Of a stretch of DNA of 11,293 nt, positions 3,540-11,293 are shown in pieces. The DNA is from Candidatus Hermodarchaeota archaeon. Lineage in GTDB: Archaea > Asgardarchaeota > Thorarchaeia > Thorarchaeales > Thorarchaeaceae. The DNA lies in NCBI GenBank assembly GCA_048885865.1, contig JBHLLF010000070.1, positions 1 to 11,293 of the forward strand, in the 5' to 3' direction. The notes beneath the pieces were generated by a model. The model made no database searches. It worked only from the letters and a program-made list of their open reading frames with translations, and was not told the origin of the DNA. A program made the position numbers and the translations under genes. The stretch's first letter is position 1; each line of letters begins with the position of its first letter.

Positions 3540-4010
3540 GTGTTGAATGAAAGGGAGCATTTCTTGTTTGAGGACTCTCCTCCATATGACAAATCCCTGA
3601 TTGCTGTTGCCACAATCATGCCCATTGTAATAATGACTCCAATCTTCCTGTTAATGGCATATTCTGAACCTGCATTAACAGCAGCAGCATTGATTCTCAT
3701 TGTGTTGGTACCACTCATTGTCTTAACCATACCCTATGGTTTCGGGGTGCCGGGTTATGTGTCAGTTTCTGAAGCCCGTATAGTAGTGAGGCACGGTAGA
3801 GTGCTTTGTATTAGGATTCCAATTGGTAGTATAATCTCTACTGATCTAAGACCTCCTCCATGGTGGTTCAACCTGTACTATCTGTTTGCCCCTTCGCAGT
3901 GGGTACATGTGAGGAAGAGCACTGGACTCCTGAAGTGGTGGTACATCCCAGCCACATCAGCCGCCAGACTCAAGACAATCCTAGATTCACTCTGGCAGGG
4001 TACTCATTAG
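3540..4010 (+). CDS. Membrane protein with two N-terminal TM helices and a probable prokaryotic PH-like domain
   Basis: Two hydrophobic segments (aa ~21-41 and ~46-66) are followed by a beta-rich pattern VSVSEARIVVRHG..IRIPIGSI...VHVRK...WYIP and a terminal helix. This layout is typical of bacterial PH-like membrane proteins. Confidence 0.7.
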   Translation: MLNEREHFLFEDSPPYDKSLIAVATIMPIVIMTPIFLLMAYSEPALTAAALILIVLVPLIVLTIPYGFGVPGYVSVSEARIVVRHGRVLCIRIPIGSIISTDLRPPPWWFNLYYLFAPSQWVHVRKSTGLLKWWYIPATSAARLKTILDSLWQGTH

Positions 4011-4017
4011 TGTACAT

Positions 4018-4608
4018 CTAGCTGAACAGCTGGCTTAAACACCGATCACAAAGCAGCTCAGAACCACCCTCATCTCTCTGGATTGTTTGGTGACAGTTGG
4101 TGCATACGGGTCTAAAGCAGCGTTCGCATAAAGTAAGATCAGCCATCTTCCTAATGCGACCACAGACAGAGCACATGTTCTTAGTACCTCGACCTCTGTG
4201 TGCGAACAGGGTCCGTACTATCGCAACTGCATCCTCTTGATCTAGACGGCCAGCTTTCACCTCCGCCTGGGCTTTCTCCTCAATCTCATCGTGATTAACG
4301 TCACTCTCAATCTCAGTCCCTATCACATCGCTCATGGCCTCTGCGGATATCTCAGTGCATCTTTCCAGACGCACAGAAGCTACAGGAAAGAGAAGTGAGT
4401 TCTTGACCTTGTCGATCACAACATCTAGAACGGAAACTAGTTCTGCATCCACGAGAGGTTTGAGATGATGCTCCAGAGCTGCTCGTTCCAGTCCCAGCTC
4501 CTCCATGACATCGCCCTTGTTAGCCACTCGTTTAGTGAGAAGATACTCTAGAATTCGGACCCTCGTTGAATTGGAAAGTGCCTTTGAAACAGGCAGAAGA
4601 TCGTTCAT
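4018..4608 (-). CDS. ArsR/SmtB-like winged-HTH transcriptional regulator with a C-terminal 8-Cys zinc finger
   Basis: The N-terminus KALSNSTRVRILEYL...DVMEELGLERAALEHHLKPLVDAELV matches the ArsR signature (ALxxxxRxxIL...HL..L..A.LV). The C-terminus has four CxxC pairs (C146/149, 161/164, 169/172, 187/190). Confidence 0.88.
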   Translation of the reverse strand: MNDLLPVSKALSNSTRVRILEYLLTKRVANKGDVMEELGLERAALEHHLKPLVDAELVSVLDVVIDKVKNSLLFPVASVRLERCTEISAEAMSDVIGTEIESDVNHDEIEEKAQAEVKAGRLDQEDAVAIVRTLFAHRGRGTKNMCSVCGRIRKMADLTLCERCFRPVCTNCHQTIQRDEGGSELLCDRCLSQLFS

Positions 4609-4629: not shown

Positions 4630-4679
4630 TAAAGACTTCTTTATGTAGTATTGGACCAGAGCAAGGGAAACTTTTCCCT
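4630..4679. promoter_or_regulatory. Two short palindromes, candidate operators between the ArsR-like gene and the ABC operon
   Basis: TAAAGA-CT-TCTTTA (4630-4643) and AGGGAAA-CT-TTTCCCT (4664-4679) are both perfect inverted repeats with a central CT dinucleotide. Confidence 0.4.
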
Positions 4680-4758
4680 ACACTCTGCGAGAGATCGTTT
4701 CGTGTTCATTCATATTAAGAAACGCCCTAATGCATACTGCAAATGGAGTGAAAGAAAG

Positions 4759-5466
4759 GTGACTTCAACAGACAGCCTCGTTGAGATCTCAGACCTTAGA
4801 AAAGAATACAGAATGGGCGAAACCATAGTCCATGCCCTAAGAGGGATTTCGCTAGATGTCGCAGATGGTGAGTTTGTAGCCATTTTGGGCCAATCAGGCT
4901 CCGGCAAGACAACTCTCTTGAACATGATTTCTGCCCTCGATACGCCTACATCAGGGGAGGTTTCTGTTCAGGGATCAGTCATCTCCTCAATGAAGAGAGA
5001 TGAGCGGACCAGATTCAGACGCTCTAGCATCGGACTAGTCTTTCAATTCTATAATTTGTTTCCCACCCTCACCGCACTCGAGAACGTAGAGATTGGCATC
5101 GCCATGGAAATAAAGGACAAACACGAGATGCGCAATAGGGCTAGCAAATATCTCGAGCTAGTCGGTATACCCGACAAGGCAAACAACTATCCATCACAGA
5201 TGAGTGGAGGAGAACAACAGCGAGTAGCAATCGCTAGGGGATTGGCTAAAGAGCCGCCCATACTTGTACTTGACGAACCAACAGGCAACCTTGATGCGGA
5301 AACATCCGAGGTGATTTGGGAACTTCTTCAGACACTCAACAAGCAGACTGGAACCACTGTCATCGCAGTGACTCACCAAACATCAGTGTCAAAGTTGGCT
5401 GACAGGTCGATCTTTCTGCGCTCCGGTTTGATATATGGAGTTTCAGAACGGAATGAGGAGGAATAG
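4759..5466 (+). CDS. ABC transporter ATP-binding protein, LolD/MacB family
   Basis: Walker [11 protein letters not shown]-loop VFQFYNL, signature [13 protein letters not shown], Walker B/D-loop [11 protein letters not shown] and H-switch VTH are all present. The start is placed at the in-frame GTG at 4759 (SD-like GGAGTG at 4745-4750) rather than the TTG at 4651. Confidence 0.95.
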
Positions 5467-5469
5467 ACC

Positions 5470-7854
5470 TTGGCTGGAACTCTCCTGCGGAAGACTAGGA
5501 AAGAGATCTTCAGTCAGAGAGGAAAAGTTGTCAGCAGCATGTTCCTTGTTTTTGTCGCTGTCTTGAGTTATGTCATGTTCTCAGCAATGATGCCAATGAT
5601 GAGGGCCACAATTGACAATACATACGAAACCTATGCTGCACCAGACTTCATGGCAGTTGCCTATTCCGCTCCTCGAGATCATATCAGTGTTATTGGAAAT
5701 ATCGAGGGCGTTGAAGCATTCACAAGTCGCTACCATGTCTTTGGGGATGTCAGTTTCACCGGCACTTCTGAGAACCCAGCAGACCTCTATGGCATTGATC
5801 CAGCAAATCCCCCGGATGTGTTCAGGCTTCTCCTGTCCGAAGGGAATTACCTGAATCCCGCAGACAATCGTTCTGCATTGGTAGAGAAGACATTTGCAGC
5901 GAACAACGGAATCGAACTGGGGTCTGAAATCACAGTGTCAGTGTTTGGGGAGGAACACGAAGTAGAAGTGGTTGGTATAGTGATCTCTTTGGAGCATCTG
6001 TTTCCCCACAGAAATCCAAAGCAACTGATCTACGCCCCTTCACGTGTTTCATTCTCTGCAGTTGCACCGATTTGGATGGACATTTCAGTGCTGCAGGAGC
6101 TGGCCTATGCAGGATATGGCGAGAAGGATGTTGTGAATGAGGTAATCGTTCGTTTCGAGGAAGGCTATGACCATACTGAACTCTCAGAATTGGTTATTGA
6201 GGCTATTAATCCGTATCCAATTGTGACCACTCTGGACATCAGTGATTTGAGAAGCGCTGAACTCACACGTTTTGATGTAGCGGACGAGTTCATCGTTCTC
6301 TTCGCAGGCATCATCTTTGCTGTTGCCGCATTTGTTGTGTTCACCACGGTGAAGAGAATTGTCGAGTTCAACTCTCGACAGATTGGCATCACCAAATCTC
6401 TTGGCTACACAACCTCAGAGGTTCAAAGAGCATACCTTCTCATTTTGGGAGCCTTGGCATTCATAGCAACCATTATAGCTCTACCTCTAGGTGAGCCATC
6501 AGGAAAGGCGATTCTTCAGAGCTTTGCTTCTGTCTATTCATTAGAGATACTGACGGGCACTATGCCACCAATGGTCTTTGTTTGGGCGTTAATCGCAGGA
6601 CCCGGCACTGTGCTTGTTTCTGCATACTTCCCGATTCGCAAAATCTCAAGGTATGAGCCGATAAGGGCCATTCGTGGGTGGATGATGGAGAAAGGATATG
6701 TTGGTGAAACAGCCCTAGAGAAAGTTGGAAAGCGGATTGGAATCCGAGGATATGGTTTCAAGTTTGTAGTTAGAGGGATTTCTCTCAACAAGGTCCGCGC
6801 AGGATTGATGGTCATTGGAATTGCCTTGGCAGCCGCAGTGGCCTCAATGGGCACAATCATGGTTGGGGGATTCAACACTAGCATCGTTGTCTATATGGAT
6901 CAGAATGAGCACTGGGACATGCTTTTGGATTTCAAAGAACCAATGAACTCGACAGAGATTGATGCGCTGATGGCGCAGGTAGACAATATCGACAGCTATG
7001 AGCCATATCTCAAGCTCGGGACGAGGGCGGTTGTGTCTGACAGATCAAGGTTGGTCAGTTTGCTATGTTTAAACACAATGGGGCAGTTACATGATTTCAA
7101 TCTCGAAATAGGCAGGACCATTCAAAATGATGATGAAGCTCTGATTGATGTCTCTGTGGCCAACTCGATTGGAGTTGAAGAAGGAGATGTAGTCAATCTC
7201 ACTGTTGGTAGTTCGACCCAATTGTTCACCGTAGTTGGATTAGTGAGTTCTCCGATGAATGTGCTCTATATCTCTCTTAGTGAGGCATTCGACTTACTCG
7301 GCGCTGAGATGATTAGCGGACTGTTCGTCAAGACCTCCGGAGGAATAGATCCTGATGCAGTCGCCGAAGAGGCATTTGCATTGGATGATGTAGAGAATGC
7401 AATGACGATGGAACAGGCATCAAGTGGCGTCTTAAGCGAAGCTCAGGGACTCGCAGTTGCTTTAGGCATGGCAGCCATCGCAATGCTATTGCTATTTGCT
7501 GTTGTGTGGAATATCGTTTCGATAAGTGTTGGAGAACGAATCCCTGAACTGGCACAGCTTGAGGCTATCGGTTGGTCGAGAAATACACTCACACGGCTTC
7601 TATTCTTGGAGATATCAATAGTGACTCTCGTTGGCGTGATACTGTCCTATCCTGTGAGCTTTGCAATGTCTGGGATGTTCAACGCCTTCATGCAGTCGTA
7701 CATATCCTTCTATGTTCCGTCGTACAATGTCTTGGTGCTCCTAGGAATAGCTGTTCTAACTTTTCTAACGTCTGTTATTGCAACGCTGCCTTCTGTAAGG
7801 CGCCTCAGGCATATTGATGTTGACAGAGTAATCCGTGACCGGCAGTTGACATAA
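5470..7854 (+). CDS. ABC transporter permease, FtsX/MacB type (type VII) with duplicated architecture
   Basis: 794 aa made of two halves, each with TM1, a large extracytoplasmic domain and three further TMs. The coupling-helix motifs RQIGITKSLGY and PELAQLEAIGW are present. The TTG start is 3 nt after the ATPase stop, with GAGGAG upstream. Confidence 0.93.
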   Translation: MAGTLLRKTRKEIFSQRGKVVSSMFLVFVAVLSYVMFSAMMPMMRATIDNTYETYAAPDFMAVAYSAPRDHISVIGNIEGVEAFTSRYHVFGDVSFTGTSENPADLYGIDPANPPDVFRLLLSEGNYLNPADNRSALVEKTFAANNGIELGSEITVSVFGEEHEVEVVGIVISLEHLFPHRNPKQLIYAPSRVSFSAVAPIWMDISVLQELAYAGYGEKDVVNEVIVRFEEGYDHTELSELVIEAINPYPIVTTLDISDLRSAELTRFDVADEFIVLFAGIIFAVAAFVVFTTVKRIVEFNSRQIGITKSLGYTTSEVQRAYLLILGALAFIATIIALPLGEPSGKAILQSFASVYSLEILTGTMPPMVFVWALIAGPGTVLVSAYFPIRKISRYEPIRAIRGWMMEKGYVGETALEKVGKRIGIRGYGFKFVVRGISLNKVRAGLMVIGIALAAAVASMGTIMVGGFNTSIVVYMDQNEHWDMLLDFKEPMNSTEIDALMAQVDNIDSYEPYLKLGTRAVVSDRSRLVSLLCLNTMGQLHDFNLEIGRTIQNDDEALIDVSVANSIGVEEGDVVNLTVGSSTQLFTVVGLVSSPMNVLYISLSEAFDLLGAEMISGLFVKTSGGIDPDAVAEEAFALDDVENAMTMEQASSGVLSEAQGLAVALGMAAIAMLLLFAVVWNIVSISVGERIPELAQLEAIGWSRNTLTRLLFLEISIVTLVGVILSYPVSFAMSGMFNAFMQSYISFYVPSYNVLVLLGIAVLTFLTSVIATLPSVRRLRHIDVDRVIRDRQLT

Positions 7855-7875: not shown

Positions 7876-8151
7876 TCAGTTGGTGCCGTAGTGTGCGTTT
7901 ATTCGTTCTCCAGCTCGGGGAATGATAATTGCATATCCAGCTGCGAACCAAATCAGCAAGCCGCCAATAAGAGCCAGATAAAATGGGCTAGTGGGGCTGG
8001 GATCACCCCACAAATCAATCATGATTCCCTGTAGTAGAAGGATGAGGATAAATGGCAATATAAAGACCAACAGCAGAAGGACAATCTTCAGTACATTTCC
8101 TGTTGCCGCACCTCCTTTGAATTTGATTTCGCCGAAATCTTCATCATTCAT
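7876..8151 (-). CDS. Small two-TM membrane protein of unknown function
   Basis: 91 aa with an ATG start and two clear hydrophobic helices (IVLLLLVFILPFILILLL; FYLALIGGLLIWFAAGYAIII). It fills the gap between neighbours without overlap. Confidence 0.75.
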   Translation of the reverse strand: MNDEDFGEIKFKGGAATGNVLKIVLLLLVFILPFILILLLQGIMIDLWGDPSPTSPFYLALIGGLLIWFAAGYAIIIPRAGERINAHYGTN

Positions 8152-8176: not shown

Positions 8177-8257
8177 ATGTTAACCAAAAGGGTTAACATT
8201 CTTATATGTTTACCTAATATATCAATATCTGATATTGTTTACTAAAAGGGTAAACTT
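8177..8257. promoter_or_regulatory. Three tandem palindromic operator-like boxes (9-5-9) at a 29-bp period
   Basis: Box 1 is ATGTTAACC-AAAAG-GGTTAACAT (8177-8199, perfect IR). Box 2 is ATGTTTACC-TAATA-TATCAATAT (8206-8228, right arm degenerate). Box 3 is TTGTTTACT-AAAAG-GGTAAACTT (8235-8257). Confidence 0.8.
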
Positions 8258-8262
8258 ATAAA
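8256..8262 (+). promoter_or_regulatory. Candidate TATA box of the SatE-like/SatD operon
   Basis: TTATAAA is a close match to the archaeal TATA consensus, lies 43-49 nt upstream of the ATG at 8305, and overlaps the right end of box 3. Confidence 0.6.
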
Positions 8263-8304
8263 GTGTGACTTGAATGTGATTCATAACTAGATTGTGGTGT
8301 TCTC

Positions 8305-8796
8305 ATGGGAATATATCAAAGGATTATAGGTCTACTAATAGCTCTGGTAAGCATCATTGCTCTATATCTCATCAGAGTCTTTCCAATACCCCCATTGTAT
8401 TCAGAGTTCTCGACAATCCTCTTTGGATACTTATTGGCTCTCTTCCTACCAGGTCTACTAATAGACCTAGTCTTTAGCGGAATAGGGAAGGAGGCAGGTG
8501 AAGACATTGCCTCCAAATGTGGAGGGTTGAGGTATGGAGGATATCTTATAGGATACGCTGAGAGGAGTCTGATTTTTCTGGCTGTTGTTATTGCCTATTT
8601 TGACGCTGCATTAACTTACGCATCGATTCTAAGCTTTCTCTCGGTTATAGTGGCTGGTAAAGCAATATTCAGGTATTCGAGTAGAGGAACAGATGATCGT
8701 GCCTGCGCAGACTGGTATATTCTAGGCACGCTCATGAGCATAACAATGGCTCTGGCATTGACATGGGGCATCTTTAGGTTCCTATTAGTTGGTTGA
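8305..8796 (+). CDS. Polytopic membrane protein resembling the C-terminal half of SatE/DUF3307-containing proteins
   Basis: About 5 hydrophobic segments. The motifs GGYLIGYAERSL, AGKAIFRY and ADWYILGTLMS match the remembered family pattern G..IG..ER...AK.I.R...EY.L.GTL.S. The gene is adjacent to a SatD-family gene. Confidence 0.75.
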   Translation: MGIYQRIIGLLIALVSIIALYLIRVFPIPPLYSEFSTILFGYLLALFLPGLLIDLVFSGIGKEAGEDIASKCGGLRYGGYLIGYAERSLIFLAVVIAYFDAALTYASILSFLSVIVAGKAIFRYSSRGTDDRACADWYILGTLMSITMALALTWGIFRFLLVG

Positions 8797-9415
8797 TGAT
8801 GAAATGATTGCGGCTATCATAGACATCGTAGCATCCAGAGATGCCTCCGTCCGCGAGCGGAGAAAATTGGACAGAGAGATACGAGGCGTGATAGATGAAA
8901 CATACAAACGGTTCAAGGAGTATTGTGTTGCCATACCTGCCTTGACGCAGGGCGATAGTATAGAGCTGTTAGTCAGCAGTTGGCATCCAATTGTATTTCT
9001 CCTTCATAAGCTCCTGATGAAAGACTTGGAGGTTCATGTAGGACTTGGAACAGGAGAGATCATAATCCATAATGAGATGGCAGATGATTGTGATGGACCT
9101 GCCTTCTGGAATGCCAGAGAAGCTCTCGACGAAGTGAAGCGCTTGAAACACATGAAGAGGCCAGCCAGCTTCAAAATTGATGAGAATGTTTCAGACAATG
9201 AGAGAACGATGATTGTCAATGTTGTTCTCTTGTTCACCAATCTTCTCAGTTTAAGCACAACTCAACTGCAGTATTGCTTCTACTACCTCTGGGATAAGAA
9301 GCAGATTTCTGAGATTGCCAAGGCTGTGAAGACGACGAAGGGGAATGTGAGCAGGACTTTGAGCAAGACACCATGTTATCTGCTCGAAGAGGTGATGACA
9401 TTTCTGGGCTGGTAA
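8789..9415 (+). CDS. satD: SatD-family protein (nucleotide-cyclase-like N-terminal domain plus C-terminal HTH)
   Basis: Motifs IDIVASR, TQGDSIE, VGLGTGEI and DGPAFWNAREAL, plus the C-terminal HTH KQISEIAKAVKTTKGNVSRTLSK, are characteristic of SatD. The start is either the TTG at 8789 (8-nt overlap with the upstream gene) or the ATG at 8804. Confidence 0.85.
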   Translation: MVDDEMIAAIIDIVASRDASVRERRKLDREIRGVIDETYKRFKEYCVAIPALTQGDSIELLVSSWHPIVFLLHKLLMKDLEVHVGLGTGEIIIHNEMADDCDGPAFWNAREALDEVKRLKHMKRPASFKIDENVSDNERTMIVNVVLLFTNLLSLSTTQLQYCFYYLWDKKQISEIAKAVKTTKGNVSRTLSKTPCYLLEEVMTFLGW

Positions 9416-9580: not shown

Positions 9581-9611
9581 GAGGACTGTGGAAATCAAGG
9601 GAGACCTTCTG

Positions 9612-11293
9612 ATGAAGTGGAGTAGAGAAGCCCTATTTGCACTCATACTTATTGCGTTGATAATTAGTGGACTCTGGGTCACTCTCGCCTTCATCCATTC
9701 CCAAGGCACATCCCCCTTCGGTCCTGGTACTTATACTCCACATAGCTCAGATGCAACATCCAGACTAACAAGCTCTCTCTATGGGGGCATATCTTTTGAC
9801 TTAACGAAGACCGAGGGGTACTTGGATGGGTATAATCTGTTCAATCTGCATGCGATCAATGCCAGCAAACATAACGAACGAATAAACAACTCTCTGGTCA
9901 TCTTTGATATGGAAGGCAATCTCATCCTAGAGAATTCAGCTTTCAGAAAGCCGGTCGAGATGATAGATTCCACAACGATACTTGGTAATAGCCTGGACGG
10001 TGCCTTGCTATGGAATATGGAGACTGATGAGTATCTTCATACCAATATCAATGGACACCACGAGTTTGAGTATAATCCAAACAGCAACACTATCTTCACT
10101 CTGAATCTGACCAAGGTGGAGATTGAAGGTGAGATCTACCGATTTGATGAGATTTGTGAATACGCGCTCAATGGCTCTCTTGTTTGGAAGCTGGACCTTC
10201 ATGACTTCATTGACCTTTCAGATTGGTGCCCTTTTCATGATCGAGAGGGAGGCAAGAATGATGTAACACACGCAAACAGCATCTTCTACAATGCAGATGA
10301 AGACACCCTCATTCTGAATGTACGTAATGTAAACACATTCTACAAAATCGATCATGCTACCGGAGATATAATCTGGGCTCTTGGAGAACATGGGGATTTC
10401 ACTTTGTTTGACAGGGTCGGTCGAGAACGAGCCAGTCTCTTCTATCATGCTCATTCCGTTGAACAGATTGATGACAACCGATTCATCTTGTTTGATAATG
10501 ACTTTCATAATCAGACCAAACAATATTCTTTCAGGTCTCGCATTCTCGAGATTGAGATTGATGAAGAAGCCATGACTGCACGGGAGGTCTGGTCCTGGAC
10601 TGGTGATCTGAGTTATTTCTCTGCTTGGTGGGGTGACGCGGATCGATTAGCAAATGGGAATCGATTGGGGGCTTTCGGCACAGAGATCAAATATGCAGGC
10701 CCCTATGGTGCCCGTCTTGTTGAGGTGAATGATGAAGGCGAGGTCGTCTGGGAGATGTCATTCAGAAACACCGACGACATCATCTATGGTGTATACAGAA
10801 TGGAAAGAATCCGATTCTCCCCAATTCTCTCTTCACATGAGGATGTCCTAGTCAGCTATGGAACAGACCTTGACCTATCTTGGCAGGCATGGTACAACTT
10901 CAGACCGAAGTGGACTATGCACGGTACATACGAATTGTATGTAGATGACATTCTCTCGAAAAATGGAGCCATTGAATATGACAAATACTGGCGCCCCACG
11001 AATATGAGCTTCAATATCGGATCCCTTGATGTTGGATACCACAATGTCACCATGACTATCAGTGATGAAGCAGGCCACAGTACCACTGATACAGTGAATG
11101 TGAGCGTGCAGACATTTCAGGTTGATCGTAGTGGTCCATTGTTCACGGAAACAGGGTCCTCAAATTCAACCATCCGATGGAGTGGTGTCACCTCCTTTCC
11201 AGTATCATATGAATTGTCAGCAAACAGCACCATTCTTGAGCAGGGTCCTTGGTATGGTTCTGATATTCTATTGGATCTGAACGACCTGGCAGT
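9612..11293 (+). CDS. Aryl-sulfate sulfotransferase (ASST) family protein with an N-terminal signal/anchor and C-terminal Ig-like repeats; 3' end truncated
   Basis: Manual translation from the ATG at 9612 is open to the window end (560 codons). It begins with the hydrophobic leader MKWSREALFALILIALIISGLWVTLAF. ASST motifs are GHHEF, DVTHANSI, LNVRN, IIWALG, FYHAHS, LFDN, GDADRLANGN and VYRMER. A beta-rich tail follows (LDVGYHNVTMTISDEAGHSTTDTVNVSV). Confidence 0.9.
   Translation, partial: MKWSREALFALILIALIISGLWVTLAFIHSQGTSPFGPGTYTPHSSDATSRLTSSLYGGISFDLTKTEGYLDGYNLFNLHAINASKHNERINNSLVIFDMEGNLILENSAFRKPVEMIDSTTILGNSLDGALLWNMETDEYLHTNINGHHEFEYNPNSNTIFTLNLTKVEIEGEIYRFDEICEYALNGSLVWKLDLHDFIDLSDWCPFHDREGGKNDVTHANSIFYNADEDTLILNVRNVNTFYKIDHATGDIIWALGEHGDFTLFDRVGRERASLFYHAHSVEQIDDNRFILFDNDFHNQTKQYSFRSRILEIEIDEEAMTAREVWSWTGDLSYFSAWWGDADRLANGNRLGAFGTEIKYAGPYGARLVEVNDEGEVVWEMSFRNTDDIIYGVYRMERIRFSPILSSHEDVLVSYGTDLDLSWQAWYNFRPKWTMHGTYELYVDDILSKNGAIEYDKYWRPTNMSFNIGSLDVGYHNVTMTISDEAGHSTTDTVNVSVQTFQVDRSGPLFTETGSSNSTIRWSGVTSFPVSYELSANSTILEQGPWYGSDILLDLNDLA

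What the first reader, a model, noticed from the sequence alone, without database searches (positions are those of the whole stretch)
8177..9415. Candidate autoregulated two-gene system: nucleotide-cyclase-like SatD-HTH plus a membrane partner
Seen in the sequence: a ~5-TM protein and a SatD-family protein are abutting or overlapping genes behind one TATA box and an array of palindromes. SatD has DIVAS (D12) and QGDS (D56), two aspartates 44 residues apart, then VHVGLGTG and DGPAFWNAR, then an HTH. Established: class III nucleotide cyclases use two metal-binding Asp residues in D-I-x-x-(S/F)-T and G-D motifs with about this spacing, followed by R-x-G-x-H-x-G and G-x-x-V-N-x-A-x-R. A cyclase paired with a TM effector is also the architecture of Pycsar anti-phage systems. 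SatD and SatE are known from the streptococcal sat operon and, to my knowledge, have no defined biochemistry. Inference: this is a self-contained nucleotide-signalling or stress/defence module in which SatD makes or senses a nucleotide, represses its own promoter and controls the membrane protein. Caveat: the cyclase Asn/Arg pair is not conserved in register and the phosphate-binding Arg is His83, so SatD may be a nucleotide sensor rather than an enzyme.
Basis: partly seen in the sequence, partly recalled or inferred. Interest (0 to 1): 0.8.

Follow-up and report, generated by a model that had tools for sequence, protein, structure and literature searches.

The report
Self-regulated cyclase-fold regulator with membrane partner
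An Asgard archaeon carries a compact, self-regulating two-gene cassette (a small membrane protein plus a DNA-binding protein whose front half folds like a nucleotide cyclase); the same pair occurs from gut Firmicutes to archaea, I found no paper on what it does, and nothing found here marks it as a phage-defence system.

Summary
Window 8305-8796 encodes a five-helix membrane protein. Window 8804-9415 encodes a SatD-family protein (PF16264, E 4e-15).

The membrane protein is a truncated relative of the bacterial DUF3307 ("SatE") partner. It keeps only the C-terminal core, and the gene order is reversed.

Three 21-bp palindromes (TGTTWAC-N7-GTWAACA) lie exactly 29 bp apart, and the last touches the TATA box. 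They recur upstream of the pair in 21 of 23 Asgard loci and nowhere else in those loci. The 29-bp period also appears in Bacillota loci.

Naturally duplicated SatD proteins split the conserved residues between their two copies, as adenylyl cyclase C1/C2 does. This points to a composite nucleotide site across a dimer.

The cassette is patchy and its flanks vary. I found no defence-gene enrichment, no PADLOC match and no cyclic-nucleotide-binding effector, so the Pycsar analogy is not supported.

This scan has already noted the cassette on other DNA (at least 92 genomes). The Asgard form is a minimal variant. Its chemistry and physiological role remain unknown.

The parts
8178..8198 (.). Operator O1, the perfect palindrome TGTTAAC-N7-GTTAACA.
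   Evidence: Repeat finder. One of the two exact genome-wide occurrences of the core pattern. Lies at -127 from the membrane gene's start, as in relatives.
8207..8227 (.). Operator O2. The left arm TGTTTAC is intact and the right arm is degenerate (ATCAATA).
   Evidence: Read. Lies at -98, exactly 29 nt after O1. The nearest relatives have TGTTTACCTAATATATTAACA at the same position.
8236..8256 (.). Operator O3 (TGTTTAC-N7-GTAAACT), promoter-proximal. It covers the expected BRE position.
   Evidence: Lies at -69, 29 nt after O2. The junction GGTAAAC-TTATAA is conserved in many loci.
8256..8262 (+). TATA-like box TTATAAA, about 43 nt upstream of the ATG.
   Evidence: Read from the sequence and recurs in related loci. 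That it acts as the promoter is inferred.
8294..8299 (+). Shine-Dalgarno-like GTGGTG, 5 nt before the ATG of the membrane gene.
   Evidence: The same GTGGTG/GAGGTG lies before the ATG in most related loci.
8305..8796 (+). Membrane protein of 163 aa with five predicted helices: a minimal DUF3307/'SatE'-type partner. Conserved motifs are CGGLxxGGYLIGYxER, AGKAIFRYS and CADWYILGTLxS.
   Evidence: 82 homologues, all Asgard and all without a Pfam domain. Alignment A5. hhalign to the C-terminal part (166-256) of bacterial DUF3307 proteins gives probability 97% and E 5e-11. AlphaFold pLDDT 79.
8804..9178 (+). SatD N-terminal palm domain, with the class III cyclase/GGDEF-like fold. Key residues are D12, S16, R24, D56, G85/G87/G89, D102-G103 and R110.
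9194..9415 (+). SatD C-terminal helical DNA-binding domain (HTH, winged-helix or sigma-region-4-like) and stop codon.
   Evidence: Five helices in the model. Weak profile hits to MarR/MJ223 wHTH and to sigma-70 ECF. Bacterial homologues hit Sigma70_r4_2 and GerE at 1e-12 to 1e-14.

Best explanation
This is a self-contained, autoregulated two-gene module.

**Shown here**
- SatD is a two-domain protein: a class III cyclase/GGDEF-type palm domain followed by an HTH.
- Its gene lies 7 nt behind the gene of a five-helix membrane protein. That protein is a truncated homologue of the DUF3307 partner found beside bacterial SatD.
- The pair is preceded by three phased palindromes that occur only at this locus in the genome.

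**Inferred**
- SatD binds the palindromes as a two-fold symmetric dimer and controls only its own operon. Occlusion of the BRE/TATA edge is the most likely mechanism, but activation is not excluded.
- The palm domains pair head-to-tail, as in class III cyclases. They form a composite Mg-nucleotide site in which D12 and D56 come from one protomer and D102 and R110 from the other.
- Occupancy or turnover of a nucleotide at that site is the switch that couples the state of the membrane partner to DNA binding.
- Because the operator has no other copies in the genome, the physiological output must come from the membrane protein itself and/or from a product of the palm domain, and not from a regulon.
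- The membrane protein's conserved cytoplasm-facing loops (CGGLxxGG and KAIFRYS...DRACADWY) are the likely contact or response surface.

The direction of information flow is open: the membrane protein could be the sensor or anti-factor, or it could be the effector.
For: **Family and fold**
- Pfam SatD, E 4e-15.
- AlphaFold pLDDT 96.7.
- The top Foldseek hits are all class III cyclases plus GTP cyclohydrolase III.

**Site conservation in 99 homologues down to 18% identity**
- D12 99/99, D56 99/99, G103 99/99, S16 97, D102 95, R110 95, R24 90.

**Composite site**
- All five tandem [palm+HTH]x2 proteins inspected keep both Asp only in copy 1 and DG..AR only in copy 2.

**Register**
- A weak HMM hit to the DosC GGDEF domain aligns D12 with the first Asp of IIDVDKF and GDEF with GGDEF.
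- hhalign to a GGDEF alignment gives the same register.

**HTH**
-.

**Partner**
- 61 of 80 Bacillota loci have a polytopic ORF of about 250 aa directly after satD, usually overlapping its end by 8-11 nt.
- 27 of 28 of these ORFs tested are DUF3307.
- The Asgard partner is homologous to their C-terminal part.
- The partner is visible in 27 of 29 evaluable Thorarchaeal loci.
- SatD-TPR and tandem SatD variants keep the partner.

**Operators**
-.
- The 29-nt period is also a sharp peak in 78 bacterial upstream regions: 731 matches at 29 nt against about 40 at other distances.
Against: - No biochemical evidence for nucleotide binding or turnover exists.
- The Asgard clade has Ser where most members have the second acidic residue of GDEF.
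- This protein has His83 where 77 of 99 members have Arg.
- The cyclase Asn is not conserved (31 of 99).
- PF00211 does not detect SatD, and hhalign to GGDEF reaches only 44% probability.
- I could not read model coordinates, so the Asp-Asp juxtaposition follows from fold equivalence and was not measured.
- That SatD itself binds the palindromes is inferred.
- The operators lie upstream of the TATA box or the -35 element. That position also suits an activator.
- Two Thorarchaeal loci have SatD with no partner within 1.5 kb.
- The five tandem proteins may descend from a single duplication.
Confidence: 0.5

Rival explanations
1. Transcription factor plus membrane anti-factor, with no nucleotide chemistry. 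The palm domain serves only for dimerisation or docking. The membrane protein sequesters or releases SatD in response to a membrane or envelope cue, as in ECF sigma/anti-sigma pairs or the LytTR regulator/membrane-inhibitor pairs of streptococci (HdrRM and BrsRM, recalled from memory).
For: - A two-gene operon of regulator plus membrane protein with dedicated upstream repeats.
- The HTH of bacterial members is sigma-70 region-4-like.
- The operators lie upstream of the core promoter, as for positive autoregulation.
- The catalytic Asn, and Arg83 in this protein, are not conserved.
Against: - Two Asp, a Ser, a DG motif and two Arg are invariant or nearly so across 99 sequences at 18-60% identity. 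That is hard to explain for a mere scaffold.
- The complementary loss in tandem proteins keeps exactly one full set of these residues.
- No other operator copies exist in the genome. A pure regulator would then have nothing to regulate except its own operon.
Confidence: 0.2
2. Toxin-antitoxin or addiction-like module. The membrane protein is harmful when over-produced, and SatD is its autorepressing antidote. The palm domain could neutralise it enzymatically, as in type VII systems such as MntA/HepT (recalled from memory).
For: - A compact autoregulated pair with a DNA-binding first or second gene and tight translational coupling.
- Patchy distribution: 30 of 87 Thorarchaeia and 49 of 251 Asgard genomes.
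- Unrelated flanks even between relatives.
- Either gene order occurs, as in TA families.
Against: - One copy per genome.
- Rare on plasmids (10 of 72,556 records) and absent from phage records with this query.
- No PADLOC or TA-family hit.
- Protein sequence is well conserved, and the membrane protein's polar motifs are strictly conserved, which suggests a specific activity and not generic membrane damage.
Confidence: 0.15
3. One reading: a Pycsar/CBASS-like anti-phage system. On infection SatD synthesises a cyclic nucleotide, which activates the membrane protein to kill or arrest the cell.
For: - Cyclase fold with an intact metal dyad.
- An obligate membrane partner.
- Patchy distribution.
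- Earlier notes of this scan report some cassettes inside restriction-modification loci. I did not check these.
Against: - The membrane partner has no cyclic-nucleotide-binding, SAVED, CARF or TIR domain.
- No PADLOC match.
- The window's neighbours are an ABC transporter, an ArsR regulator, a methyltransferase and an arylsulfotransferase-like gene.
- The nearest flanking proteins of 80 bacterial loci fall into 180 Pfam families, none in more than 5 loci, with only generic PADLOC hits.
- An HTH fused to the cyclase and a dedicated operator array are not features of Pycsar cyclases (from memory).
Confidence: 0.1

Closest known systems
SatD/SatE of the Streptococcus mutans sat operon (Pfam SatD PF16264 and DUF3307 PF11750)
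   Same: - The SatD protein passes the Pfam model.
- Bacterial satD is followed by a DUF3307 gene in 61 of 80 loci.
- The Asgard partner is homologous to the C-terminal part of those proteins.
- The phased 29-bp operator architecture is shared.
   Different: - Gene order is reversed, with the membrane gene first.
- The partner has 163 aa instead of about 250. It lacks the whole Pfam-covered N-terminal half with the conserved His, Asp and Gln (HxxGDFYxQ).
- The second palm motif is GDSIE instead of GDEFQ.
- The operator sequence differs.
- I found no paper on the biochemistry of SatD or SatE. The original 2001 sat-operon paper was not held.
Class III nucleotidyl cyclases (Pfam Guanylate_cyc PF00211; for example M. 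avium Ma1120 4wp9, M. tuberculosis Rv1625c 7yz9, Rv1264 1y10, mammalian AC C1/C2 1cjk)
   Same: - An Asp lies at the end of strand 1 and another in the beta2-beta3 turn.
- A Gly-rich strand follows, with Arg at its start in most members.
- A helix carries a conserved Arg.
- Complementary degeneration in fused tandem copies mirrors C1/C2.
   Different: - PF00211 does not detect it.
- The domain is shorter, about 125 aa.
- The substrate-specifying Lys/Asp pair and the Asn are not conserved.
- It is fused to an HTH.
- No activity is known.
GGDEF diguanylate cyclases (PF00990) and GTP cyclohydrolase III (MJ0145, 2qv6)
   Same: - The bacterial SatD motif ITLGDEFQGLL aligns with RxGGDEFxxLL, and DGPAxxxARxAxxxxK aligns with ADxAMYxAK.
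   Different: - The first motif is GDIxxS[RK], not DxDxFKxxND.
- There is no I-site.
- Profile similarity is weak (probability 44%).
- The Asgard clade has lost the EF of GDEF.
Cyclase-domain transcription regulators such as M. tuberculosis Rv0386 (class III cyclase + ATPase/TPR + LuxR HTH; recalled from memory)
   Same: - A cyclase-type domain and a LuxR/sigma-4-type HTH lie in one polypeptide.
- SatD-TPR variants exist.
   Different: - SatD is far smaller and has no STAND ATPase.
- It has an obligate membrane partner and a dedicated operator array.
- It is not detected by PF00211.
Pycsar (PycC cyclase + PycTM/PycTIR effector)
   Same: A cyclase-fold protein is encoded next to a small multi-helix membrane protein.
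   Different: - There is no cNMP-binding domain in the membrane protein.
- There is no PADLOC hit.
- There is no defence context.
- SatD carries an HTH and autoregulates.

Membership tests
Pfam SatD (PF16264) | Score above the curated gathering threshold of the family HMM. | tested here: met
   56.3 bits against a cut-off of 29, E 4.3e-15, residues 7-148. It is the only copy found in the assembly (87% complete).
Pfam DUF3307 (PF11750), the SatE-type partner | Match to the Pfam HMM, which covers the N-terminal half with the conserved HxxGDFYxQ motif. | tested here: not met
   No Pfam hit for the 163-aa protein even at E 10. None of its 81 close homologues carries a Pfam domain.
Pfam DUF3307 (PF11750), the SatE-type partner | Homology to full-length DUF3307 proteins that sit beside SatD. 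| tested here: met
   hhalign of A5 against A4 gives probability 97% and E 4.9e-11 over columns 166-256 of the bacterial proteins. The motifs GxxIGxxER, AKxIxRY and [DE][WY]YxLGTLxS are shared. 27 of the 28 bacterial proteins are PF11750.
Class III nucleotidyl cyclase (PF00211) | Cyclase-homology-domain palm fold. | tested here: met
   [not shown]
Class III nucleotidyl cyclase (PF00211) | Detection by the family HMM. | tested here: not met
   PF00211 searched over the whole genome gives no match, so none at 8804-9415.
Class III nucleotidyl cyclase (PF00211) | Two metal-binding Asp, one at the end of strand 1 and one in the beta2-beta3 turn. | tested here: inconclusive
   D12 and D56 are invariant in 99 of 99 members. 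They sit at the end of strand E2-9 and just before strand E52-57 of the model. A weak HMM alignment puts them on the GGDEF metal ligands. The coordinates could not be read, so no distance was measured.
Class III nucleotidyl cyclase (PF00211) | Transition-state Asn...Arg pair and substrate-specifying Lys/Asp supplied in trans. | tested here: inconclusive
   R110 is found in 95 of 99 members and D102 in 95 of 99, but N108 in only 31 of 99, and the spacing differs from N-x-x-x-R. Trans action is suggested by the complementary loss in tandem proteins.
Class III nucleotidyl cyclase (PF00211) | Conversion of an NTP to a cyclic NMP. | not testable with these tools
   This needs an enzyme assay.
GGDEF diguanylate cyclase (PF00990) | GG[DE]EF signature and profile similarity. 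| tested here: inconclusive
   [not shown]
Pycsar anti-phage system | Effector with a cyclic-nucleotide-binding domain, and detection by defence-system HMMs. | tested here: not met
   No Pfam domain in the membrane protein. No PADLOC hit for either protein or for the bacterial pair, apart from one chance-level hit.
Pycsar anti-phage system | Protection against phage. | not testable with these tools
   This needs an infection assay.
HTH DNA-binding regulators (sigma-70 region 4 / LuxR / winged helix) | Significant match of the C-terminal domain to an HTH family. | tested here: inconclusive
   This protein gives TIGR02937 at E 0.01 and MJ223/MarR at E 0.3-0.8. Bacterial family members give Sigma70_r4_2 at 5.7e-14 and GerE at 2.6e-12. 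The model shows a five-helix C-terminal domain.

The most novel reading that the evidence does not exclude
SatD is an active palm-domain nucleotidyltransferase or cyclase with a composite dimer site. It makes a so far undescribed small nucleotide signal, and the conserved C-terminal core of DUF3307-type membrane proteins is that signal's dedicated receptor or effector. This would be a new second-messenger module shared by Bacillota, haloarchaea and Asgard archaea. In the Asgard form it is reduced to its minimal working parts.
Probability: 0.2. Interest if true: 0.85.

Novelty: new variant of a known kind. Interest (0 to 1): 0.6.

Why it matters
SatD and DUF3307 exist only as database names. 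I found no paper on their fold, partnership, operators or chemistry.

- **Architecture.** A cyclase-fold domain wired directly to DNA binding, with an obligate membrane partner, would be a new way of linking the membrane to gene control or to nucleotide signalling.
- **Use of the Asgard form.** It removes the partner's His/Asp-bearing N-terminal half and shows which part always travels with SatD.
- **A direct test.** The tandem-copy pattern predicts that mutants of the Asp dyad and of the DG..AR motif should complement each other in trans.

Tried and rejected
- **Membrane protein fold.** Foldseek against PDB found nothing below E 0.5. The ESM Atlas shape search and feature search gave only generic helical-bundle rows. 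No fold assignment was made.
- **Sequence search of solved structures.** SatD profiles gave only sub-threshold hits: DosC at E 0.48 and Rv1900c at E 1.7. I used these for register only.
- **Family-wide genome scan.** The search for related loci with the family-wide alignment failed because no stretch was conserved enough. I used a bacterial subset instead.
- **Fusions.** A search for SatD-DUF3307 fusion proteins found only SatD-TPR forms. That is weak evidence of absence.
- **Literature.** Searches for SatD, SatE, DUF3307 and PF16264 returned nothing on function. The 2001 sat-operon paper was not held.
- **Structured RNA.** Rfam gave no match in the window, so the palindromes are not a known RNA element.
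- **Replication origin.** I considered whether the 29-bp array is an iteron-type origin with SatD as a palm-domain initiator. I rejected this as unlikely. The array abuts a TATA box or -35 element in chromosomal single-copy loci, the cassette is rare on plasmids, and it always includes a membrane protein.
- **Divergent small ORF.** The 91-aa two-helix ORF at 7876-8151 is not part of the module. It is shared only with the nearest relative.
- **Foreign origin.** Base composition gives no clear signal. GC is 0.39-0.45 in the cassette against 0.44-0.50 elsewhere in the window, and the dip is mostly the intergenic region.
Full report
**1. What is in the sequence**

The window comes from a Thorarchaeal (Asgard) metagenome-assembled genome of 3.58 Mb, 87% complete. 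The closest homologues are named Candidatus Thorarchaeota.

- ORF 8305-8796 (+) encodes a 163-aa protein. AlphaFold models it as five long helices (pLDDT 79).
- ORF 8789-9415 (+) encodes a protein that matches Pfam SatD (PF16264) at 56.3 bits against a cut-off of 29.
- Homologues start at MIA..., the ATG at 8804. That start leaves a spacer after the membrane gene's stop, 7 nt in 20 of the 26 loci where both genes were located by motif. The genes abut and do not overlap.
- The membrane gene has a GTGGTG Shine-Dalgarno-like element 5 nt before its ATG. This too is conserved.

**2. SatD has a cyclase-type palm fold plus an HTH**

I collected 150 representatives with an exhaustive HMMER search. 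I aligned 99 full-length ones, down to 18% identity.

With that alignment AlphaFold gives pLDDT 96.7 and pTM 0.92.

- Foldseek's best PDB hits are all class III adenylyl or guanylyl cyclases (Ma1120, Rv1900c, CyaC, sGC) plus GTP cyclohydrolase III, with probability 1.00.
- The family is nevertheless distinct at sequence level. PF00211 does not detect it. PDB profile searches give only sub-threshold hits. hhalign to a GGDEF alignment reaches 44% probability.
- Those weak alignments agree on register. D12 falls on the first Asp of the GGDEF strand-1 motif, GDEF on GGDEF, RxGIGxG on SxSIGI, and ARxAxxxxK on ADxAMYxAK.
- The C-terminal 70 residues form a helical DNA-binding domain. The hits for this protein are weak: sigma-70 ECF at E 0.01 and MarR/MJ223 at E 0.3-0.8. 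Bacterial members give clear hits to Sigma70_r4_2 and GerE, at 1e-12 to 1e-14.

**3. The conserved residues look like a working, composite site**

Counts among the 99 sequences:

| Position | Conservation |
|---|---|
| D12 | 99 |
| D56 | 99 |
| G103 | 99 |
| G87 | 98 |
| S16 | 97 |
| G85 | 97 |
| D102 | 95 |
| R110 | 95 |
| R24 | 90 |
| Position 83 | Arg in 77, His only in this protein |
| Asn108 | 31 |
| Position 57 | Glu in 70 (GDEF), Ser in the Asgard clade |

Five proteins in the hit list are natural tandem duplications, [palm+HTH]x2.

- In all five, copy 1 keeps GDIxxS[KR] and ITLGD[EQ]F. It has lost the DG Asp (replaced by Gln or Ser), and in four of the five the Arg is replaced by Leu or Ile (in P0310 an Arg lies one position away).
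- Copy 2 has lost the first Asp in all five (IGAYPS, IGCWDT, IGSWEG, IGRWDT) and the second clearly in four (GHEFQ, YHEFQ, GYEFQ), but keeps MDG[PST]xFYxAR.
- This is the logic of the C1/C2 halves of mammalian adenylyl cyclase. It implies that the two Asp of one palm act with D102 and R110 of the other, across a head-to-tail dimer. It also implies that one complete site is enough.
- The pattern argues that the site is used for binding or catalysis. It also fits a two-fold symmetric dimer on palindromic DNA.
- It does not prove catalysis, and the five proteins may share a single origin.

**4. The membrane protein is a minimal SatE/DUF3307**

- It has 82 homologues, all Asgard and none with a Pfam domain. 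A marginal hit to a 269-aa DUF3307 protein is the only exception.
- In Bacillota, 61 of 80 satD loci have a polytopic ORF of about 250 aa directly downstream, usually overlapping satD by 8-11 nt. 27 of 28 of those tested are PF11750.
- Profile-profile comparison places the Asgard protein on the C-terminal part (166-256) of those proteins, with probability 97% and E 5e-11. The shared motifs are GxxIGxxER, AKxIxRY and [DE][WY]YxLGTLxS.
- The Pfam-covered N-terminal half, with its conserved His, Asp and Gln (HxxGDFYxQ), is absent. Two unrelated helices take its place.
- The part that always travels with SatD is therefore the C-terminal three-helix core.
- By the positive-inside rule, which is my own inference, its two conserved polar loops face the cytoplasm.
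- No solved or Atlas structure resembles it.

**5. Pairing, distribution and context**

- The partner is visible beside SatD in 27 of 29 evaluable Thorarchaeal loci. Two loci have an orphan SatD and one has a frameshifted partner.
- The partner is also present in two distant Asgard loci whose surroundings are entirely different: a hydrogenase cluster, and a helicase-Cas1 gene with TnpB.
- SatD-TPR fusions and tandem SatD proteins keep a DUF3307 neighbour. The tandem form has it upstream, as here.
- SatD is found in 30 of 87 Thorarchaeia genomes, and in 12 of the 24 high-quality ones. It is found in 49 of 251 Asgard genomes, concentrated in two families and as one copy each.
- Flanking genes are not shared except between the closest relatives.
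- In this window the neighbours are an ABC ATPase with an FtsX permease, an ArsR regulator, a methyltransferase, a HAD hydrolase, a TPR protein and an arylsulfotransferase-like gene.
- The nearest flanking proteins of the 80 bacterial loci fall into 180 Pfam families, none in more than five loci. Their PADLOC hits are mostly generic, from XRE-type HTH proteins and ABC-type ATPases, with DpdF in two loci.
- Neither protein hits PADLOC.
- SatD occurs on 10 of 72,556 plasmid records and on no phage record.
- The cassette therefore behaves as a movable accessory unit, but I see no defence-island signal.

**6. The operator array**

- Upstream of the membrane gene lie three 21-bp sites of consensus TGTTWAC-N7-GTWAACA, at -127, -98 and -69. 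They are exactly 29 bp apart, and the last abuts TTATAAA.
- At 12 or more of 14 specified positions, the motif occurs 40 times within the 200 nt upstream of the pair in 21 of 23 loci. It does not occur in the remaining 91 kb.
- In this genome the exact core occurs only at O1 and O3. The four one-mismatch sites elsewhere are isolated, and they are fewer than the reversed-pattern control gives.
- In 78 Bacillota loci the upstream regions show a sharp 29-nt autocorrelation peak: 731 against about 40, with a second peak at 58. Their palindromes have a different sequence, for example ATGCAT-N6-ATGCAT. The geometry is a family trait, while the sequence changes between clades.
- The last site lies at or just upstream of the -35 element or the BRE. 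That would allow occlusion but does not exclude activation. Some bacterial loci instead have one large palindrome enclosing the promoter.

**7. Interpretation**

The best reading has the following parts.

- This is a self-contained, autoregulated module.
- A SatD dimer binds the phased palindromes and governs only its own operon.
- Its palm domains form a composite Mg-nucleotide site that acts as the switch.
- The membrane protein is the obligate partner, either as sensor or anti-factor or as effector.
- Because there is no wider regulon, the output must be the membrane protein's own activity or a palm-domain product.

The rival readings are a pure regulator/anti-factor pair, a toxin-antitoxin-like pair, and a Pycsar-like defence system. 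The last is the least supported.

**8. Relation to earlier notes and novelty**

This scan has already noted SatD-DUF3307 cassettes with 29-bp phased palindromes in at least 92 other genomes, and this same stretch once. I re-derived these points independently. I add two points that the notes I retrieved do not state:
- the explicit homology of the Asgard partner to the C-terminal core of DUF3307;
- the complementary degeneration in tandem SatD proteins. An earlier first-reader note only saw a 424-aa tandem form.

In the literature I found no characterisation. I rate it a new variant of a known but uncharacterised kind.

Noticed in passing
Proteins P0212, P0292, P0307, P0310 and P0311 (metagenomic SatD relatives); P0212 lies at L133:2326-3600: Tandem-duplicated SatD proteins ([palm+HTH]x2, 410-424 aa) show complementary loss of motifs. 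Copy 1 keeps both Asp motifs but not DG..AR, and copy 2 is the reverse. The pattern resembles adenylyl cyclase C1/C2.
   Followed up: partly
L131:4001-6311 (P0255); also P0237, P0325, P0260, P0339 and P0340: SatD proteins extended by long TPR arrays, one also with hexapeptide repeats. The one locus read (P0255, in L131 and L132) still has an overlapping DUF3307 gene downstream.
   Followed up: partly
L004:1-2313 and L004:7123-8367: In a distant Asgard relative, the cassette lies near the gene of an 1169-aa protein that combines DEAD/Helicase_C, HTH and Cas1 domains. A TnpB (OrfB_IS605) gene lies nearby. This is a helicase-Cas1 fusion that may mark a mobile element.
   Followed up: no
window 7876-8151 (-): A divergently oriented 91-aa two-helix ORF starts 27 nt from operator O1. 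It is shared only with the closest relative, so it is probably not part of the module, although here O1 may overlap its promoter.
   Followed up: partly
window 4651-7854 (+) and 4018-4608 (-): An ABC ATPase and a 794-aa FtsX-type permease (MacB-like layout) lie next to a divergently oriented 196-aa ArsR-type HTH protein, upstream of the cassette.
   Followed up: no
window 9588-11291 (+, runs off the window): A protein of more than 568 aa with an arylsulfotransferase (ASST) beta-propeller domain is encoded directly downstream of the cassette.
   Followed up: no
L011, L012, L014 and L015 (upstream of satD, about 3850-4000): A subgroup of Bacillota loci lacks the 29-bp array. Instead one long palindrome (TATAACC...GGTTATA) encloses the predicted -35/-10 region. 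This is a different operator layout for the same gene pair.
   Followed up: no
L098 and L113; L093: Two Thorarchaeal genomes have SatD with no detectable partner within 1.5 kb. In a third the partner gene is split by a frameshift.
   Followed up: partly
Plasmid hits H1, H2 and H4 (Haloplanus, Halorientalis and Natronosalvus megaplasmids): SatD-family genes are annotated on haloarchaeal megaplasmids, so the family reaches a second archaeal phylum on replicons other than the main chromosome.
   Followed up: no
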